From Phycisphaerae bacterium (GTDB lineage: Bacteria > Planctomycetota > Phycisphaerae > UBA1845), in contig JBHHUB010000003.1 in the NCBI GenBank assembly GCA_046753625.1, positions 1 to 55,188 of the forward strand: a DNA stretch of 55,188 bases, written 5' to 3'. Shown one piece after another: positions 1,127 to 53,702 of the stretch. Both the position numbers and the translations under genes were made by a program. How positions within the stretch are numbered: the first letter of the stretch is position 1; the number at the start of each line of letters is the position of its first letter. The notes under the pieces were generated by a model, which saw only the letters and a program-made list of their open reading frames with translations, did no database searches and was not told where the DNA came from.

Positions 1127-1957
1127 ATGCTGCGTGCGTGTGACCATGGCAATGCGGCGCTGCCGCTGATAGGCTCTGGCCGGCGCCGCGCTTTCACCAT
1201 GATCGATGTGGTCGTGGTCATGGCGATCATCGTATTGTTGCTCGCGATTCTAGTGCCGTCTCTGAGTCACTCCAGGGAGTTGGCTCGCCGCGTGCTCTGT
1301 GCCGGCAATTTGCGCCAGTGGGGTGTGGCCACGCGATTTTACCGCGATGACTACAACGACTACCTGCCATCCGAAGGCACGTACACCAACCTCGCCAAGC
1401 CGCATTCCTGGTTCAACGTCTTGCCGCCTTATCTTGGATTGCCCGCCTACAAGGACATCGAGCGCGTCGACAACGCGATCAAGGAGTTTCCGTCGCTTCA
1501 CGTATGGATCTGTCCTTCCAAGAACCTGACCGATGCCTTCAAGAGTCGCTCCGGCAAGAACCAGTTCCACTACGGGCTCAATCAGGTGCTCGATGGTTTG
1601 GGGACCGCGCCCCGGGTTTCCTCGGATACGCCGGGCTATGTCTCCGATGTGGACCATCCGATTTCCGCCTACCCGTTTGCGGCCGAGCCTCATACCGTCT
1701 GGATGTTTGACATCGCGCCGAACTCACCGGCCGGAACGCCCCGAAGCGTGGCCAACCGATTCCAACGCGATTTTCAGGGCCGTCGCATGGGCAGGTTTCA
1801 CGGCGACTATGCCAACGTGCTTTATCTCGACGGCGCCGTTGCCGACTGCCGCGCCGACGATCTGGTCCACGATCGTGATTTCCGCCATGGATCGGTCATC
1901 TGGACCCGTCGCAAGTTGTTCTGGGGCTACCGACCGCATGCACGTTCGACCCCATAG
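1127..1957 (+). CDS. Prepilin-type N-terminal cleavage / H-X9-DG domain protein (DUF1559-like, planctomycete type)
   Basis: RRRA-FTMIDVVVVMAIIVLLLAILVPSL..ARRVLCAGNLRQWG; WICPS; C-terminal HGDYANVLYLDG. Confidence 0.9.
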   Translation: MLRACDHGNAALPLIGSGRRRAFTMIDVVVVMAIIVLLLAILVPSLSHSRELARRVLCAGNLRQWGVATRFYRDDYNDYLPSEGTYTNLAKPHSWFNVLPPYLGLPAYKDIERVDNAIKEFPSLHVWICPSKNLTDAFKSRSGKNQFHYGLNQVLDGLGTAPRVSSDTPGYVSDVDHPISAYPFAAEPHTVWMFDIAPNSPAGTPRSVANRFQRDFQGRRMGRFHGDYANVLYLDGAVADCRADDLVHDRDFRHGSVIWTRRKLFWGYRPHARSTP

Positions 1958-1990
1958 TGCTTTGACATGCCTAAACTTTCGGGTTCGTTA

Positions 1991-2056
1991 CGGATCAAAG
2001 CCGCGGGCGCCAGCCCTCGGACCGGTCCCACCGCTAGCGCGGTGGGCTCTGATTCG
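1991..2056. repeat. Inverted REP-like doublet (family B)
   Basis: Terminal inverted arms cggatcaaagcc / ggctctgattcg (10/12) enclosing two GC hairpins, ccgcgggc-gcca-gccctcgg and cccaccgc-tagc-gcggtggg. Confidence 0.6.
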
Positions 2057-2237
2057 CGGACCCGATTCCGGTTGCTCGGGCGGCGACAACGGACAAATTA
2101 GAGTGTGACGTAGCACTAGCGGCAAAACGGAAGGGGCTGGGCAACGGAACATGGAGGCTTGCCACGGTCGCCGGTTCATCGCCGATCTTTAATCTTGAGC
2201 GGAGCTTGAATGCTTGAATCGTCCATCCCCAACCTTC

Positions 2238-2266
2238 TTGGCTTGATGGTTGCGCGATCGTATAAT
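2238..2266 (+). promoter_or_regulatory. Sigma70-like promoter of the phosphoesterase gene
   Basis: TTGGCT-17 nt-TATAAT. Confidence 0.5.
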
Positions 2267-2353
2267 CCGGGTGCCGGTGGGTGTTTTCAGGATGGGCGAT
2301 CGCGCAAGCGACGGCATGAGGCTCCAAAGGGTCCGTGAGAATCGAGGCACGCT

Positions 2354-2845
2354 TTGCTCGTAGGCATACTCTCAGATAGCCACGGCGACCACCTCATGGT
2401 TCGCGAGGCTGTCAGCCTATTCGACTCGCTCGATGTGGCCCACATCATCCACTGCGGGGACGTCTGTGGCCTCAACGTTTTCGACGAGCTCGCCGGTCGA
2501 CCCGTTACTTTCGTGTGGGGCAATTGCGATGTAGCCAGTGATGCGACCCTCGACTATCTCGAGACCCTCGGCTTGACCGCGCCGGATCACGTTCCGATGA
2601 TCTTGGAGTTGGGCGCTAAACGCTTCGCGGTATTTCACGGCCACGAGCGCGCGTTCGCACGTGCGTTGCACACCTTGGATGTCGACTACCTGCTGCACGG
2701 CCACACGCACATCGCGCGCAACGACCGTATCAACGGAACGCGCATCATCAACCCGGGCGCCCTTCACCGTGCCAACCCCAAGACGGTCGCGATCCTCGAT
2801 ACCGATAGCGACGCGCTTACTTTTCACAACATCGAGCGGGGGTAG
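2354..2845 (+). CDS. YfcE/MJ0936-family metallophosphoesterase
   Basis: Motifs SDSHG, HCGD, GNCD, FHGH, HGHTH, INPG; TTG start. Confidence 0.92.
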   Translation: MLVGILSDSHGDHLMVREAVSLFDSLDVAHIIHCGDVCGLNVFDELAGRPVTFVWGNCDVASDATLDYLETLGLTAPDHVPMILELGAKRFAVFHGHERAFARALHTLDVDYLLHGHTHIARNDRINGTRIINPGALHRANPKTVAILDTDSDALTFHNIERG

Positions 2846-2943
2846 GGGGGGCTGTGCCTTCTCCTGGTCGTGCCCGGCACCCGCTTGGCCGGCAGCAGTT
2901 CGTGCGCAGCGGTCGGGGGGCGACGGGCGGGCGGCCGCGCGCG

Positions 2944-3777
2944 TCAGAGTGCGTTGGCTCGCTGTTTGATCACATTGGGGCTCGATTCGACGATTTCTCG
3001 TTCGTTCGATTCCGCCGCCGCCGGCTGCATGGCTCCTTGCATGGCGCCGATGCATTCGGCCTCGGTATCGGCGGCCGGGCGGAGCCCCGCGGCGATTCGT
3101 TCGCGTACGTAATCATGGATCTGCCCCGGTGTCATCGCCGCCACCTCTTCCACCGACAGCGGCTGGGAAAACCGCAATCGCACCTCGCCCGGTTGAACGC
3201 CCATCTGGTTTCGCCGGCAAACCTTGACCGATCCGTCAATTGTGAAGGGAACGATCATCAATCCCGCACGTTGGCAGATTTTCATCGTCCCTTTGCGAAA
3301 AGGGAGCAGCTTCCCGTCGATACTACGCGTGCCCTCTAGAAAAACGGCCATCGAAATCGGGCGTCGGTGGATCGCCTCAACCATCTTGGTCAGTCGGGCG
3401 AGGGCAACACGCGGGCGATTCTGGTCGATCGGTACGTGCCCGTAGGCGGACATGACCCAGCCCGCAATAGGAATCTGAAACAACCGGTCCAGCGACAAGA
3501 ACCGAAATCGACCGCCCAGCACGGAGATTAGGATGGGCACATCCAAGATGCTCTGATGATTGCCCACAAAGAACTTTGCGTTGTCGCCTTGAAGGAACTC
3601 GGCGCCCTCGACCTTGAGGCGTACACCGCAGATGGCGAGCATCGTGTTGGCCCAAAGCGTGGCCGACCAGGCATACACCCGCCGGGACGGATACACCAAA
3701 CCGATCAAGCAAACTGGAATCCCGATAGGGATCGCCATTAGTCCAAAAACAAACAGCGCAAGGGCCGATCTGACCAT
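2944..3777 (-). CDS. plsC: 1-acyl-sn-glycerol-3-phosphate acyltransferase (PlsC family)
   Basis: NHQSILD (HX4D motif) and FLEGTRS. Confidence 0.88.
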   Translation of the reverse strand: MVRSALALFVFGLMAIPIGIPVCLIGLVYPSRRVYAWSATLWANTMLAICGVRLKVEGAEFLQGDNAKFFVGNHQSILDVPILISVLGGRFRFLSLDRLFQIPIAGWVMSAYGHVPIDQNRPRVALARLTKMVEAIHRRPISMAVFLEGTRSIDGKLLPFRKGTMKICQRAGLMIVPFTIDGSVKVCRRNQMGVQPGEVRLRFSQPLSVEEVAAMTPGQIHDYVRERIAAGLRPAADTEAECIGAMQGAMQPAAAESNEREIVESSPNVIKQRANAL

Positions 3778-9877: not shown

Positions 9878-9949
9878 GCCGACATAGCTCAATGGTAGAG
9901 CGCAGCTTTCGTAAAGCTGAGGTTCTGGGTTCGACTCCCAGTGTCGGCT
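9878..9949 (+). tRNA. tRNA-Thr(CGT), CCA not encoded
   Basis: Acceptor stem GCCGACA/TGTCGGC, D arm GCTC-AATGGTA-GAGC, anticodon arm CAGCT-TTCGTAA-AGCTG, T arm CTGGG-TTCGACT-CCCAG. Confidence 0.97.
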
Positions 9950-18975: not shown

Positions 18976-19097
18976 GGGATAGCGCGCTGGATTGACTTCC
19001 GGCACGGATTGGGAAAATGATAAGAGGAGGAGCGGTTGGCTGTCAGCTTTCAGCCATTGCGATTGCGTGTCTTGTCGAACATTCGTAGGGCGGCGAC

Positions 19098-19172
19098 CGG
19101 GAGGCCGCGCGGGCTGAAGCCCGCAGCTAGGGGGAAAGCCCGCGGCTCGGGGGAAAGCCTGCGGCTCGGGGA
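19098..19172 (+). repeat. REP family A: full palindrome plus two tandem half-copies (19-nt period)
   Basis: ggccgcgcgggctgaagcccgcagctaggggg aaagcccgcggctcggggg aaagcctgcggctcgggga. Confidence 0.85.
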
Positions 19173-25026: not shown

Positions 25027-25120
25027 GAGCCCACGGCTCGGATGGGGGGTAAGCTGCCTCGGGAGGCCACGTGGGCTTCAAGCCCGCGGCTCGGGGGCCG
25101 CGCGGAGCCCGCGGCTCAGG
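25027..25120 (+). repeat. REP family A cluster (one full palindrome plus half-copies)
   Basis: cgggaggccacgtgggcttcaagcccgcggctcggggg (25060-25097); half-copies agcccacggctcgg (25028) and agcccgcggctcagg (25106). Confidence 0.8.
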
Positions 25121-51458: not shown

Positions 51459-52187
51459 TCACGAACTCGATCGAGCTTGCTCGGCTAGCTCGCCGAGCCG
51501 ATTCAACGCCGCGACCGGCTCCTCCTGGCGAAAGACCGCCGTTCCTGCAACGAAGGTGTCCGCGCCGGCCGAGGCGGCCGAAGCTATTGTCGCCGGATTG
51601 ATGCCGCCGTCGATCTCCAAACGCTGCGTTGCGTCCAGCCGACCGCGCAACGCCTCCACTTTCGATAGTACGTCCGGAATAAACTTCTGCCCACCGTGGC
51701 CGGGCCACACACTCATGACCAACACCAGGTCCACCTCATCGATGATCGTGTCGATGGACTCGATCGGTGTCGTTGGATTCAGCGACACGCCCACCGCCGC
51801 ACCCAAGCCGCGGATGTGGTCGACGACCGCCATCGGCGAATCCGCCACCTCAATATGGAAGGTGATCAGATCGCAACCGGCCTGGACGAAGGCCTCAGCG
51901 TAGCGCATCGGCTCCTGGATCATCAGGTGAGCGTCAAAGAACATCTGCGACGCCCCTCGGATCGATTGGATGATGCCCGCCCCGAAGCTGATGTTGGGGA
52001 CAAAATGCCCGTCCATCACGTCCAAATGCAGCAGCGTCGCGCCGCCGCGCTCGATCAGCGCCACATCGCGGTGCAGTTGCGAAAAATCCGCGGAAAGCAG
52101 AGACGGCGCAATCCGCAGGGCGGGCGACGCCAGCTTGAAGGCCGTTGGATCGCGTTTCATGTCCGGTGCCATGGCTCCCTGATTCAT
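51459..52187 (-). CDS. rpe: Ribulose-phosphate 3-epimerase
   Basis: IAPSLLSADF, HLDVMDGHFVPN, DAHLM, VMSVWPG, IDGGI. Confidence 0.96.
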   Translation of the reverse strand: MNQGAMAPDMKRDPTAFKLASPALRIAPSLLSADFSQLHRDVALIERGGATLLHLDVMDGHFVPNISFGAGIIQSIRGASQMFFDAHLMIQEPMRYAEAFVQAGCDLITFHIEVADSPMAVVDHIRGLGAAVGVSLNPTTPIESIDTIIDEVDLVLVMSVWPGHGGQKFIPDVLSKVEALRGRLDATQRLEIDGGINPATIASAASAGADTFVAGTAVFRQEEPVAALNRLGELAEQARSSS

Positions 52188-53518
52188 GCGTCGTCCAATA
52201 CCTCCAAAGCGGCGAAGGGTTTTCCTTCGAGAAACTCCAGCGACGCGCCACCGCCCGTCGAAATGTGGCTCAATCGATCGGCCACTCCAGCGCGGTCCAC
52301 GGCCGCCGAGCTGTCGCCGCCGCCCACGATGCTTACCGCCCCTCGATCGGTTGCTTCGGCCAGCGCCTCAGCCATGGCCACCGTGCCCCGGTCAAACGGG
52401 GGCATTTCAAACACGCCCATCGGTCCGTTCCAAACGACCGTCTTGGCCGAGCCGATCAGCTTGGCGAAATGCTCGACGCTGTGCGGGCCGATGTCCAGCC
52501 CCATCAAATCCGTCGGGATGCCGCCGCTGTGAACCTCGTTGACGGCATTCGGGGCCATTTCCCGCGCACAGACGCTGTCGGTGGGCAGCACCAGGCGGTC
52601 GCCCGCCTCCGCGATCAGGCTGCGGGCGGTTGCCAACAGGTCCGCTTCGACCAGGCTTCTGCCGACCGATTCACCTTTGGCGGCAAGAAACGTGTAGGCC
52701 ATCGCACCGCCGATTAGTATCGTATCGCATCGCCCCAGCAACGCTTGTATCACGCCCAGCTTGTCCGAGACCTTGGCCCCGCCGAGCAGGCACGCGAAGG
52801 GGCGTTTGGGATCGGCCAGGGCTTCGCCGAGGAATCTCAGCTCTTTTCGAACCAGCAAGCCCACCACCCGCGGTTTGCCGACCATCATCTGCGGAACCGT
52901 CAGCATACTGGCGTTGTCGCGATGGCAGGTGCCGAACGCATCGTTGACGTAGACGTCCGCCATGTCCGCCAGCCCGCGCGCGAACGCATCCTTCTGTGTG
53001 CGAAGTGAAGCGTCTTTGGCCGCTTGGGCATCCTTAATGGTCTCCGCCTGATGGAACCGGAGGTTTTCCAAGAGCACGACCTCGGCGTCAGGCCAAGCGG
53101 CGGATGCTTCCGCCCCCCACGTTGCGGGCTTTCCCGCCCCCTGAGCCGCGGGCTTCTTTGATCCCTGAGCCGCGGGCTTCAGCCCGCGCGGCCCCGCGGA
53201 TACCGCCACACCTTCCTCAACCGCCGCGACCTCGCCGCGAACGAGCGGAACGGGGCAATCCAGCAACTCCCCCAGGCGAACCGCCACCGGCGCCAGCGAG
53301 AACTTCTCCCGATCACCGGGCCGGCCCTTCGGCCGGCCGAGATGGCTCATCAAAACCAATCGCCCGCCACCTTTGCGGATTTTCTTCAACGTCGGAAGCG
53401 CCGCTGTAATCCGCCGATCATCGGTGATGCGCGATTGATCGTCCAAGGGGACGTTCAGGTCCAGCCGGACCAGCACGCGCTTCCCCCGTACCTCGATGTC
53501 GTCAATGCTCTTTTTCAT
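52184..53518 (-). CDS. pgk: Phosphoglycerate kinase with an in-frame repeat-derived insertion
   Basis: RLDLNVP, SHLGRP, LLENLRF, NDAFGTCHR, GGAKVSDK, WNGPMGVFE, STGGGASLE. Confidence 0.97.
   Translation of the reverse strand: MKKSIDDIEVRGKRVLVRLDLNVPLDDQSRITDDRRITAALPTLKKIRKGGGRLVLMSHLGRPKGRPGDREKFSLAPVAVRLGELLDCPVPLVRGEVAAVEEGVAVSAGPRGLKPAAQGSKKPAAQGAGKPATWGAEASAAWPDAEVVLLENLRFHQAETIKDAQAAKDASLRTQKDAFARGLADMADVYVNDAFGTCHRDNASMLTVPQMMVGKPRVVGLLVRKELRFLGEALADPKRPFACLLGGAKVSDKLGVIQALLGRCDTILIGGAMAYTFLAAKGESVGRSLVEADLLATARSLIAEAGDRLVLPTDSVCAREMAPNAVNEVHSGGIPTDLMGLDIGPHSVEHFAKLIGSAKTVVWNGPMGVFEMPPFDRGTVAMAEALAEATDRGAVSIVGGGDSSAAVDRAGVADRLSHISTGGGASLEFLEGKPFAALEVLDDA
53115..53193 (-). repeat. REP family A copy inside pgk (24-nt period)
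   Basis: Minus strand ggccgcgcgggctgaagcccgcggctcagggatcaaag aagcccgcggctcagggggcggga aagcccgcaacgtgggg, encoding PRGLKPAAQGSKKPAAQGAGKPATWG. Confidence 0.9.
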
Positions 53519-53568: not shown

Positions 53569-53702
53569 GCCGTCAGCTATCAGCGCTAAAGCGGAATGCG
53601 GGTTGATGTCACGTGACGCATCGCCGGGAAACAGGTTCTACTCCGTGTCGCGCCGAGGCTTACCGGTCGCGGGCCTCTGGCTGATAGCTGATAGCTGATG
53701 GC
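53569..53702. repeat. Inverted heptamer (GCTGATA) repeat element between gap and pgk (family E)
   Basis: gccgtcagctatcagc (53569-53584) is inverted to gctgatagctgatggc (53687-53702), 15/16; a related single arm lies at 19039-19054. Confidence 0.75.

What the first reader, a model, noticed from the sequence alone, without database searches (positions are those of the whole stretch)
53115..53193. Palindromic repeat translated in frame inside phosphoglycerate kinase
Seen: the palindrome GGCCGCGCGGGCTGAAGCCCGCGGCTC and two further half-copies sit inside pgk and encode PRGL-KPAAQGSK-KPAAQGAG-KPATWG. The same element is intergenic at 19103 and 25065. Its period is 19 nt at 19.1 kb but exactly 24 nt (8 codons) in pgk. 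The stretch between PVPLV and AEVVLLEN is 51 aa; from memory typical bacterial PGKs have about 17 there, which would make the insertion roughly 30-35 aa. All catalytic motifs are intact. Known precedent: Rickettsia palindromic elements in protein genes. Inference: an active repeat family is adding peptide loops to core enzymes in this lineage, with selection for frame.
Basis: partly seen in the sequence, partly recalled or inferred. Interest (0 to 1): 0.85.

Follow-up and report, generated by a model that had tools for sequence, protein, structure and literature searches.

The report
Palindromic repeat inserted in-frame in pgk
A short GC-rich hairpin repeat that litters this Phycisphaerae genome sits in frame inside its only phosphoglycerate kinase gene and adds a 34-residue loop, a real but already known kind of event.

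Summary
The single pgk (window 52184-53518, minus strand) carries a 102-nt in-frame insert at about 53114-53215. It consists of one copy of a ~30-nt hairpin repeat plus three 22-24-nt "tail units" that repeat its 3' arm. The repeat family has 198 copies in this 4.26-Mb genome: 176 intergenic, 8 at gene edges and 14 inside predicted genes.

The closest relatives (G002 and database protein P0002) have the hairpin at the same pgk site but lack 48 nt, which is two 24-nt units. 25 of 26 aligned relatives lack the insert entirely, and the modal PGK length is 410 aa against 444 here. The conserved PGK motifs are intact and there is no second pgk.

The same family also sits in frame in alaS, a dnaE2-like polymerase, a citE-like lyase, a GT1 glycosyltransferase and a nuoL-like gene. 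Orientation, frame or copy number differ between sister genomes.

The element behaves like a REP. It lacks the GTAG/CGTC tags, and no cognate transposase could be assigned.

Intragenic REPs and Rickettsia RPEs are already described, so this is a new member of a known kind.

The parts
52184..53518 (-). pgk, 444 aa. It is the only phosphoglycerate kinase gene in the genome and lies between gap (upstream) and a ribulose-phosphate 3-epimerase-like gene (downstream).
   Evidence: ORF. A Pfam PF00162 search of the whole genome finds only this gene, in two pieces. Best solved relatives are PGKs at E 1e-102. The columns invariant across 30 PGKs are all present.
53114..53215 (-). 102-nt (34-aa) in-frame insert, residues about 102-135 (EGVAVSAGPRGLKPAAQGSKKPAAQGAGKPATWG). 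The boundaries are uncertain by a few residues.
   Evidence: Gap opposite 25 of 26 aligned relatives and 26 of 29 database relatives. Pfam model gap at 53108-53233. PDB alignment gap at query 97-138.
53167..53193 (-). Family-A hairpin with an 8-bp stem CGCGGGCT/AGCCCGCG around the loop GA. It encodes GPRGLKPAA.
   Evidence: Sequence. The nhmmer match to the family model covers 53163-53201 at E 2e-9. An 8-bp stem is found in 122 of 198 copies.
53133..53180 (-). Two 24-nt tail units (GAAGCCCGCGGCTCAGGG + 6 nt). The first overlaps the 3' arm of the hairpin. Each encodes KPAAQG plus two residues.
   Evidence: Period 24. G000 has 48 nt here that G002 lacks, and P0002 lacks the matching 16 aa.
53093..53132 (-). 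A decayed third tail unit (53111-53132, encoding KPATWGA) and a degenerate end unit (53093-53110, GAAGCATCCGCCGCTTGG). The end unit is shared with G002.
   Evidence: Similar GGAAGCATCCGCGGC tails occur after intergenic copies.
19096..19172 (+). Intergenic family-A copy: a hairpin plus tail units with a 19-nt period.
25059..25118 (+). Intergenic family-A copy with a TTCA-type loop and a decayed 5' arm, plus one tail unit. An orthologous copy is present in G002.

Best explanation
**What it is.** A member of a dispersed, REP-like family of GC-rich hairpin repeats ('family A'; about 30 nt, an 8-bp stem, and an unpaired 3' tag CTCrGGG) was inserted into pgk in the common ancestor of this genome, G002 and the metagenomic protein P0002. 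It was often followed by 19-24-nt tail units that repeat the 3' arm. It landed in the N-terminal domain, between the strand PVPLV and the strand VVLLEN.

**History.** The original hairpin plus one tail added 54 nt (18 aa) in frame. This lineage later gained two more 24-nt tail units, most likely by tandem duplication or slippage, giving 102 nt (34 aa).

**Effect.** The insert has no stop codon in this frame. It is translated as a Pro/Ala/Gly/Lys-rich loop that the enzyme tolerates.

**Family behaviour.** The family mostly sits downstream of genes. About 7% of copies lie inside genes, and they survive only where length and frame keep the protein open and the site is permissive. The same loops of AlaRS, CitE-like, GT1 and DnaE2-like proteins therefore carry different palindromic inserts in different lineages.

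**Shown versus inferred.** Shown: the insertion, its family membership, its phylogenetic distribution and the intact reading frame. Inferred: translation, tolerance at a surface site, the duplication mechanism and transposition. The mobilising enzyme is unknown.
For: **The element in pgk**
- Exact hairpin and tail units lie in pgk, and the nhmmer match has E 2e-9.

**Family census in G000**
- 198 copies were found: 176 intergenic, 8 at gene edges and 14 inside my predicted genes. Those genes cover 76.6% of the genome.
- Copies per kb of spacer: convergent 0.40 (39 copies), tandem 0.20 (93), divergent 0.08 (15); 29 lie at contig ends.

**Orthologues**
- Of 26 relatives' PGKs aligned, 25 lack the insert. 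G002 has the hairpin with 48 nt less.
- Of 29 database relatives aligned, P0002 (90% identity) and P0003 (84%) have an 18-aa insert. P0002's hairpin codons have decayed. P0015 has an unrelated 10-aa insert at the same site, and 26 have none.
- The modal length among the 120 best hits is 410 aa.

**pgk looks functional**
- There is only one pgk in a genome rated 100% complete.
- All columns invariant across 30 PGKs are present.
- Insert lengths are 54, 54 and 102 nt, all multiples of three.

**Other genes**
- In-frame copies lie inside Pfam domains of AlaRS, the HHH_6 domain of a DnaE2-like polymerase, HpcH/CitE and GT1, and next to domains of NuoL-like, Wzy_C and a Ser/Thr kinase-TPR protein.
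- Relatives lack these inserts or carry other elements, orientations or frames.
- Family-derived peptides give 15 hits in 13 of 2947 predicted proteins, against 1 hit for reversed controls.

**Distribution**
- An exact 22-23-nt pattern occurs 116 times in G000, 95 in G002, 113 in G018, 86 in G015, 70 in G009 and 37 in G028. It has no match in 25 of 41 related genomes, and backwards-read controls give 0 everywhere.
- The exact 25-mer lies almost only in records titled Phycisphaerae or Planctomycetota.

**Assembly**
- Logan contigs from four runs of one sample match both halves of pgk, up to and into the hairpin, with 0 differences.
Against: - No contig from the four runs bridges the hairpin. 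The left pieces end at 53192 and the right pieces start at 53167/53168, a 25-nt overlap. The join therefore rests on the original assembly and on the independent G002 and P0002 sequences.
- All four runs come from one sample that may be the source of the window, so they are not independent.
- Translation and enzyme activity are not shown.
- The hairpin is not more stable than shuffled sequence of the same composition: DNA z -0.4 to -1.2, RNA z -1.27.
- The family lacks the GTAG/CGTC tag of described REPs.
- The one clear RAYT of the genome is flanked by a different palindrome, and its orthologues do not track family-A counts.
- No target-site duplication could be defined.
- My gene calls come from a home-made codon-usage caller, so the genic and intergenic counts are approximate.
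Confidence: 0.85

Rival explanations
1. The hairpin inside pgk is kept by selection for a function of its own. It could be a DNA or RNA site bound by a family-specific protein, a site of mRNA processing or translational pausing between the two halves of the N-domain, or a useful peptide loop. On this reading it is not merely tolerated.
For: - G000 and G002 differ at 35% of third codon positions in pgk, yet the 33-nt hairpin window is 32/33 identical. Only 6 of 1237 windows reach 32/33, and 4 of those 6 are the hairpin itself.
- The family consensus is identical across genera whose PGKs are only 62-72% identical.
- Some copies keep the stem through changes on both arms (GCAGGC...GCCTGC), with 5-6 such A-T pairs at stem positions 4-5.
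Against: - P0002, which is closer to G000 than G002 is, has four changed residues in the hairpin codons.
- The shared alaS copy in G002 has two stem-breaking changes and a 3-nt deletion.
- The shared 25-kb spacer copy has a decayed arm in G000.
- Highly conserved 31-32/33 windows also occur elsewhere in pgk.
- Folding energy is not better than shuffles.
- The inserted peptides differ by frame and orientation between genes.
Confidence: 0.08
2. Assembly artefact: two pgk halves were wrongly joined through a repeat shared by many loci, or the number of tail units is wrong.
For: - No Logan contig spans the hairpin.
- Summed depth in the two hairpin bins is about 1800-3750, against about 9-27 beside them. 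This shows a highly repeated word at which assemblers break.
- The genome is a 433-contig assembly.
Against: - Both flanks are pgk, in the same frame and at similar depth.
- The left contigs run through both 24-nt units into the hairpin with 0 differences.
- Independent assemblies (G002, and proteins P0002 and P0003) have the hairpin at the same site and in frame.
- There is only one pgk.
Confidence: 0.03
3. The insert is not translated. Either pgk is a decaying gene, or the segment is removed from the RNA or bypassed by the ribosome.
For: None directly. No RNA run holds the stretch, so expression is untested.
Against: - The ORF is intact and is the only pgk in a genome rated 100% complete.
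- The codon-usage score is like that of other genes: 0.14 per codon, against -0.08 for a shadow frame.
- Invariant PGK residues are kept.
- Insert lengths stay multiples of three in three lineages and in alaS. That would not be required if the segment were removed.
Confidence: 0.03
4. The loop is a native low-complexity stretch of this PGK clade, and it resembles the repeat only through shared GC-rich composition.
For: - The site tolerates other length changes: P0015 has an unrelated 10-aa insert there.
- The genome is 62% GC.
Against: - The pgk sequence matches the family hairpin over 39 nt at E 2e-9 for the whole genome.
- It includes the exact 16-nt core, found at 2 places in the window (4 matches over both strands) against 0.13 expected.
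- The loop is absent from two genomes of the same genus.
Confidence: 0.01

Closest known systems
Intragenic REPs (GTAG- and CGTC-tagged palindromic repeats; Di Nocera et al. 2013, PMC3733652; abstract listing and passages seen)
   Same: - Both are short stem-loop repeats, dispersed and mostly intergenic.
- Both favour spacers between unidirectional and convergent genes.
- A minority lie in frame inside genes of known function, often as grouped repeats encoding 20-30 aa or more.
- The gene classes named there (uvrA, dnaE2, tRNA synthetases) are also hit here.
- Different REPs at about the same site in related species were noted there for recB.
   Different: - Family A has no GTAG or CGTC tag: at most 9 of 150 copies show any tag or its complement at one position.
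- It has arrays of 3'-arm 'tail units' with 19-24-nt periods.
- It is spread through Phycisphaerae.
- pgk was not named in the passages I saw. That paper's supplementary list of interrupted genes could not be read.
Rickettsia palindromic elements (RPE; Ogata et al. 2000, recalled; described in the MITE review PMC10969869, passages seen)
   Same: Both are palindromic repeats inserted in frame into unrelated housekeeping genes and read through as extra peptide segments without destroying the gene.
   Different: - RPEs are about 100-150 bp and encode a conserved peptide. This core is about 30 nt and is read in at least four frames or orientations.
- The host is a free-living GC-rich planctomycete lineage, not a reduced AT-rich intracellular genome.
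- No sequence relation was tested.
REP/RAYT systems (REPtrons)
   Same: - The copy number, size and palindromic form match, as does the location at 3' ends of genes.
- The genome encodes Y1 HUH transposase relatives, including one that passes the NCBIfam RAYT cut-off at 82.8 against 80 bits.
   Different: - That RAYT is flanked by another palindrome, CCCCATGTCC..GGACATGGGG.
- Its orthologues occur in genomes without family A and were not found in G002, G009 or G015, which have 70-95 copies.
- No REPtron for family A was found in G000.
MITEs that make in-frame fusions (ERIC, Correia, cyanobacterial MITEs; review PMC10969869, passages seen)
   Same: Both are non-autonomous small repeats that can land in genes and be translated.
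   Different: - No terminal inverted repeats beyond the hairpin itself were seen.
- No target-site duplication could be defined.
- No parent IS was identified.

Membership tests
Phosphoglycerate kinase (Pfam PF00162) | Match to the family model over its full length | tested here: met
   Model positions 1-88 and 97-379 are matched at 101.9 and 357.1 bits, against a cut-off of 27. PDB PGKs match at E 1e-102.
Phosphoglycerate kinase (Pfam PF00162) | Conserved substrate- and nucleotide-binding motifs are present | tested here: met
   All columns invariant in 30 PGKs are present in this protein. Examples are R36, H59, R62, R154, H199-R200, K249, N364-G365-P366, E371, G399-D402 and T421-G424. Which of these are catalytic is recalled, not tested.
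REP (repetitive extragenic palindromes) | Short (20-40 nt) imperfect palindrome | tested here: met
   The conserved core is about 30 nt. An 8-bp stem is present in 122 of 198 copies.
REP (repetitive extragenic palindromes) | Many dispersed copies, mostly intergenic and biased to the 3' ends of genes | tested here: met
   There are 198 copies, 176 of them intergenic. Density per kb is 0.40 in convergent, 0.20 in tandem and 0.08 in divergent spacers. The gene calls are my own rough ones.
REP (repetitive extragenic palindromes) | Unpaired GTAG or CGTC tag at one end (Di Nocera 2013 super-families) | tested here: not met
   No tag is conserved at any position in 150 anchored copies. The maximum is 9 of 150.
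REP/RAYT (REPtron) | A RAYT gene flanked by copies of the same REP family | tested here: not met
   The RAYT at G000:C36:53-646 is flanked by a different palindrome. The four other Y1 genes have no family-A core nearby. In G028, a class-3-like Y1 domain inside valS is flanked by family-A variant copies. G000 has no close homologue of it: the best is 26% identical.
Rickettsia palindromic elements | Element of about 100-150 bp encoding a conserved peptide | tested here: not met
   The core is about 30 nt, and four different reading frames or orientations are used in proteins. The RPE size comes from the review passages.
Rickettsia palindromic elements | In-frame insertion into genes of unrelated function without loss of the gene | tested here: met
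   pgk, alaS, a dnaE2-like gene, a citE-like gene, GT1 and others all keep open frames, with Pfam domains on both sides of the insert.
Rickettsia palindromic elements | Insert lies on the protein surface, away from the active site | not testable with these tools
MITE | Target-site duplication and a related autonomous IS | tested here: inconclusive
   ATCCGC occurs on both sides of the pgk insert, but the same words are part of tail units elsewhere. No parent IS was found.

The most novel reading that the evidence does not exclude
In Phycisphaerae, palindromic repeats may be drawn to hairpins that already sit in coding DNA. The same surface loops of essential enzymes (PGK, AlaRS, CitE-like, GT1, DnaE2-like) would then be repeatedly re-written by new copies, inversions and tail-unit expansions. 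This would be a standing, repeat-driven mechanism of loop diversification. It would be driven by a planctomycete class-3 Y1 HUH enzyme which, in some genera, is itself carried in frame inside valS, flanked by family-A copies.
Probability: 0.2. Interest if true: 0.7.

Novelty: new member of a known kind. Interest (0 to 1): 0.45.

Why it matters
- This is a clean, well-controlled case in which a selfish hairpin repeat has lengthened a central glycolytic enzyme by 8%. The single-copy gene stays open and its conserved motifs are kept.
- The stepwise history is visible in three relatives: no insert, 18 aa and 34 aa.
- It extends 'REP-decorated' proteins to an uncultured hydrothermal-vent Phycisphaerae lineage and to an untagged repeat family.
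- It warns annotators that odd loops in conserved proteins of this clade are repeat-derived.
- The recurrent use of the same loops in several enzymes offers natural experiments on which sites in these folds tolerate insertions.

Tried and rejected
Each retry came after the stated wait. No model and no mapping onto the fold were obtained.

**Expression and read support**
- No RNA holder was listed for the stretch, so expression could not be addressed.
- Logan contigs of four runs of one sample do not bridge the hairpin. They neither confirm nor contradict the join.

**Known RNA families and folding**
- An Rfam scan of the whole window at gathering thresholds found only a tRNA at 9878-9949 and nothing at the repeat.
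- Folding energies of the hairpin and of the 126-nt insert region are no better than shuffles. I dropped any argument from thermodynamic stability.

**Search for the mobilising enzyme**
- Pfam Y1_Tnp hits occur in 39 of 41 related genomes and do not separate carriers from non-carriers.
- The RAYT on C36 has other flanking palindromes, and its orthologues do not track family-A counts.
- The Y1 gene on C295 is flanked by yet another repeat.

**Other analyses set aside**
- My hairpin registration picks the best-pairing register, so I do not use it as a covariation test.
- A target-site duplication could not be defined.
- I did not test whether repeat copies break other genes out of frame. The 8 'edge' copies were not examined.
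- Three of 30 PGK loci (L012, L019, L027) failed my ORF filter and were left out of the alignment.

**Literature**
- A search for Phycisphaerae + palindromic + repeat + intergenic found 0 papers.
- 'Repetitive extragenic palindrom' + Planctomycet found 9 papers. Only PMC3733652 and PMC6006769 looked relevant by title or abstract.
Additional file 3 of PMC3733652, the list of genes carrying REPs, may already include pgk or planctomycete cases.
Full report
**What is in the window**

The minus-strand ORF 52184-53518 encodes a 444-aa phosphoglycerate kinase. It lies downstream of gap and upstream of a ribulose-phosphate-3-epimerase-like gene.

It has an 8-bp stem (CGCGGGCT/AGCCCGCG) around the loop GA. 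It is followed by:
- two 24-nt units that repeat its 3' arm (53157-53180 and 53133-53156);
- a decayed 22-nt unit (53111-53132);
- a degenerate end unit (53093-53110).

Tandem Repeats Finder reports period 24 x 2.4 copies at this site. It reports period 19 x 2.9 copies at the intergenic copy at 19117-19171. A third copy lies at 25059-25118.

The 16-nt core occurs at 2 places in the window, each scored on both strands (4 matches), against 0.13 expected by shuffling.

**The repeat family**

The window is contig C3 of a 4.26-Mb, 433-contig genome with 61.8% GC.

- The 12-nt 3' arm occurs 152 times, against about 2.5 expected.
- A profile built from 136 seed copies finds 198 copies at E <= 0.01.
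- The conserved core is about 30 nt (gGCCGCGCGGGCT-GA-AGCCCGCGGCTCGGGg). Common loops are TGAA (63 of the 136 seeds), TAAA (28) and TTCAA (13).

No gene finder was available, so I trained a codon-usage caller. It gave 2947 genes covering 76.6% of the genome, and it scores pgk and gap positive and a shadow frame negative. On these rough calls, 176 copies are intergenic, 8 touch a gene edge and 14 lie inside genes.

Intergenic copies favour convergent spacers:

| Spacer type | Copies | Copies per kb |
|---|---|---|
| Convergent | 39 | 0.40 |
| Tandem | 93 | 0.20 |
| Divergent | 15 | 0.08 |
| Contig end | 29 | not computed |

Tail-unit periods between genes peak at 19 (11 cases), 21 (11) and 24 (7). 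The 24-nt period in pgk is therefore one of the family's normal periods, not a product of coding.

The family has no conserved GTAG or CGTC tag. Its folding energy is not better than that of shuffled sequence. Rfam finds nothing at the repeat.

**Is it an insertion?**

Yes.
- A Pfam search of the whole genome finds one pgk, with the model split at positions 88/97 around 53108-53233.
- Solved PGKs align with 40 query residues opposite 6.
- In 41 related genomes, 39 have a PGK match. Only G002 (same genus, 84% identity) matches the query end to end. All others match in two pieces that skip roughly query residues 95-140.
- I aligned 27 PGKs, after three loci failed my ORF filter. 25 of the 26 relatives have 34 fewer residues at the site. 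These include G001 and G003 of the same genus.
- G002 has the identical hairpin at the same place (SAGPRGLKPAARG) but lacks exactly 48 nt.
- Among the 120 best database relatives the modal length is 410 aa.
- In an alignment of 30 PGKs, P0002 (90% identity, 428 aa) and P0003 (84%, the G002 protein) carry the 18-aa form. P0002's hairpin codons have decayed (GPGGLKSTAK). P0015 has an unrelated 10-aa insert at the same site, which suggests a permissive loop.

The simplest history has two steps. A hairpin plus one tail unit entered pgk in the ancestor of this small clade. G000 later added two 24-nt units.

**Is pgk still a working gene?**

Everything testable by sequence says so.
- The frame is open.
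- Its codon usage is gene-like.
- Every column that is invariant in 30 PGKs is present.
- No second pgk exists in a genome rated 100% complete.

Expression could not be examined, because no RNA run holds the stretch.

Logan contigs of four DNA runs match both sides with 0 differences but stop inside the hairpin. The two sides overlap by only 25 nt. All four runs come from one hydrothermal-vent metagenome sample, which may be the window's source. The join is thus supported by the original assembly and by the independent G002 and P0002 sequences, not by these contigs.

The hairpin bins have a summed depth roughly 100-200 times that of their neighbours. This agrees with a highly repeated word.

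**Other genes**

The 14 copies inside genes include clear in-frame cases within or beside Pfam domains:
- AlaRS: reverse orientation, EPRASARAD, inside tRNA-synt_2c.
- A DnaE2-like polymerase: PRGLKPAARG, inside HHH_6. The 90-position model is stretched over 151 residues.
- An HpcH/CitE-like lyase: AARTEARGSEE.
- A GT1 glycosyltransferase: AARAEARGSG, which splits the domain.
- A NuoL-like protein, a Wzy_C protein and a Ser/Thr kinase-TPR protein.
- The N-terminal region of UvrA, which may lie upstream of the true start.

Four of the five open frames of the element are used. The sixth frame carries the loop's TGA or TAA stop. Family-derived peptides give 15 hits in 13 of 2947 predicted proteins, against 1 hit for reversed controls.

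Comparison with five relatives shows turnover at these loops:

| Loop | G000 | G002 | Other relatives |
|---|---|---|---|
| AlaRS | reverse copy | same copy, with decay and a 3-nt deletion | G003: three other elements, including a forward family-A copy. G011: three copies of an unrelated palindrome. G001 and G018: empty |
| CitE-like | forward copy | a reverse copy (plus a possible decayed forward remnant), 9 aa longer | G018: forward copy. G003: empty |
| GT1 | one frame | another frame | absent from four relatives |

**Distribution and age**

An exact 22-23-nt pattern occurs as follows:

| Genome | Matches |
|---|---|
| G000 | 116 |
| G018 | 113 |
| G002 | 95 |
| G015 | 86 |
| G009 | 70 |
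| G022 | 48 |
| G028 (another family of the order) | 37 |
| G003 | 27 |
| 25 of the 41 genomes, including G001 | 0 |

Backwards-read controls give 0 everywhere. The 80 records listed are, with one exception (a bin labelled Alcaligenaceae), titled Phycisphaerae, Phycisphaerales or other Planctomycetota.

Some copies are old. The 25-kb spacer copy and a remnant of the 19-kb one are present at the syntenic sites of G002.

G000 and G002 pgk are 81.5% identical in DNA, and 64.5% at third codon positions. The hairpin window is 32/33 identical, among the best 6 of 1237 windows. This could mean constraint or gene conversion. However, decay of the same hairpin in P0002 and of the alaS copy in G002 argues against strong constraint.

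**How it moves**

This is unknown.
- G000 has five Y1 (HUH) transposase relatives.
- One, at C36:53-646, passes NCBIfam's RAYT cut-off. It is flanked on both sides by a different palindrome. Its orthologues occur in genomes without family A and were not found in three genomes with 70-95 copies.
- Y1 genes as a class are present in 39 of 41 relatives.

I therefore file the element as REP-like by behaviour, not as a demonstrated RAYT-mobilised REP.

**Relation to what is known**

Rickettsia RPEs are the textbook case of palindromic repeats read through in housekeeping genes (review PMC10969869, passages; the original 2000 report is recalled).

Di Nocera et al. 2013 (PMC3733652; passages) described intragenic GTAG- and CGTC-tagged REPs in several phyla. 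They named uvrA, dnaE2 and tRNA synthetase genes, reported inserts of 20-30 aa and more, and noted different REPs at about the same site of recB in two species.

The present case is therefore a new member of a known kind. It differs in these ways:
- It is an untagged family with tail-unit arrays.
- It lies in Phycisphaerae.
- It hits pgk.
- It has an unusually clear stepwise history.

My two literature searches found no description of such repeats in Phycisphaerae. Supplementary lists could not be read.

**A side observation**

While looking for the mobiliser, I found a 1422-aa ValRS in G028. It carries in frame a Y1/HUH-like domain flanked by family-A variant copies. Six copies lie inside the ORF and one lies just outside it.
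- The same insertion is present in valS of G003 and G018.
- It is absent from valS of G000, G029 and G036.
- Its Y motif resembles the planctomycete 'class 3' Y1 proteins of Quentin et al. 2018 (PMC6006769, passages).

This looks like a REPtron-like unit inside an essential gene and is the best lead to the family's enzyme. However, G000 has only a 26%-identical standalone relative.

**Verdict**

It is of moderate interest.

Noticed in passing
L211:1951-6216 (= G028:C3, minus strand); also valS of G003:C344 and G018:C159: A 1422-aa valyl-tRNA synthetase carries, in frame, a Y1/HUH transposase-like domain (about residues 520-700, with motifs TYGTWLPGDDRGS and DHVHIL). The domain is flanked by inverted family-A variant hairpins. 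Six copies lie inside the ORF and one lies just outside it. The insertion is present in valS of G003 and G018. It is absent from valS of G000, G029 and G036. It looks like a REPtron-like unit inside an essential gene.
   Followed up: partly
L037:1-720 (= G000:C36): A 198-aa REP-associated tyrosine transposase (NCBIfam NF047646, 82.8 bits against a cut-off of 80) is flanked on both sides by a different palindrome (CCCCATGTCC-4 nt-GGACATGGGG). That palindrome has 68 copies in the genome at up to 2 mismatches, and on contig C228 it directly abuts family-A hairpins.
   Followed up: partly
G000, many contigs (e.g. C7:1319, C9:13735, C24:6177): A second hairpin family (GGGCTGGCGCCCGCGGCTCTGA) has 106 copies at up to 2 mismatches. 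A longer double-hairpin form of about 95 nt has 44 copies, 6 of them within 150 nt of a contig end. A third family (GAGCCGCATGCTTCAGCTTGCGCGGC, 23 copies) is also read in frame in the dnaE2-like gene and in G003 alaS.
   Followed up: partly
L036 (= G000:C295:1856-2527, minus strand): A class-3-like Y1 gene (motifs TYGTWLHGDERGS, NHLHVV and YVLEGQ) is flanked by copies of yet another repeat (AAACCCGTCGCTGACGCTCCGGGCTCCGAT). It appears to be inserted near the end of a restriction-modification-like ORF, whose last residues are repeated after the element.
   Followed up: partly
window 53572-53586 and 53680-53702: The gap-pgk spacer holds an inverted pair (GTCAGCTATCAGC ... GCTGATAGCTGATAGCTGATGGC) about 95 nt apart. 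A related GGCTGTCAGCTTTCAGCC lies at about 19038-19055, beside the 19-kb repeat copy. The word CAGCTATCAGC occurs 18 times in the genome.
   Followed up: no
pgk residues about 159-180 (window about 52979-53044): All Phycisphaerae PGKs aligned carry an extra segment of about 13 residues (ETIKD..AA.D..LR..KD.F) after the ENLRF motif. The best solved PGK lacks this segment. It is a conserved clade feature unrelated to the repeat.
   Followed up: no
protein P0016 (database PGK, 69% identical): This PGK has a 10-residue insert (EIARDEARGS) at a different loop, just before the PV.L strand. The insert resembles the AARAEARGS reading of family A. Only the protein was seen, not the DNA.
   Followed up: no
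L064 (G011 alaS loop): The AlaRS loop that holds family A in G000 holds three copies of an unrelated AT-richer palindrome (GCAAAGATCCTCTTTGC) in G011. It encodes GTQRSSLHEGG repeats.
   Followed up: no
L086:200-1030 (G002:C84): At the spacer syntenic with window 18.9-19.2 kb, G002 has about 600 nt of extra DNA with an apparent minus-strand ORF. Only a degenerate remnant of the repeat is present there.
   Followed up: no
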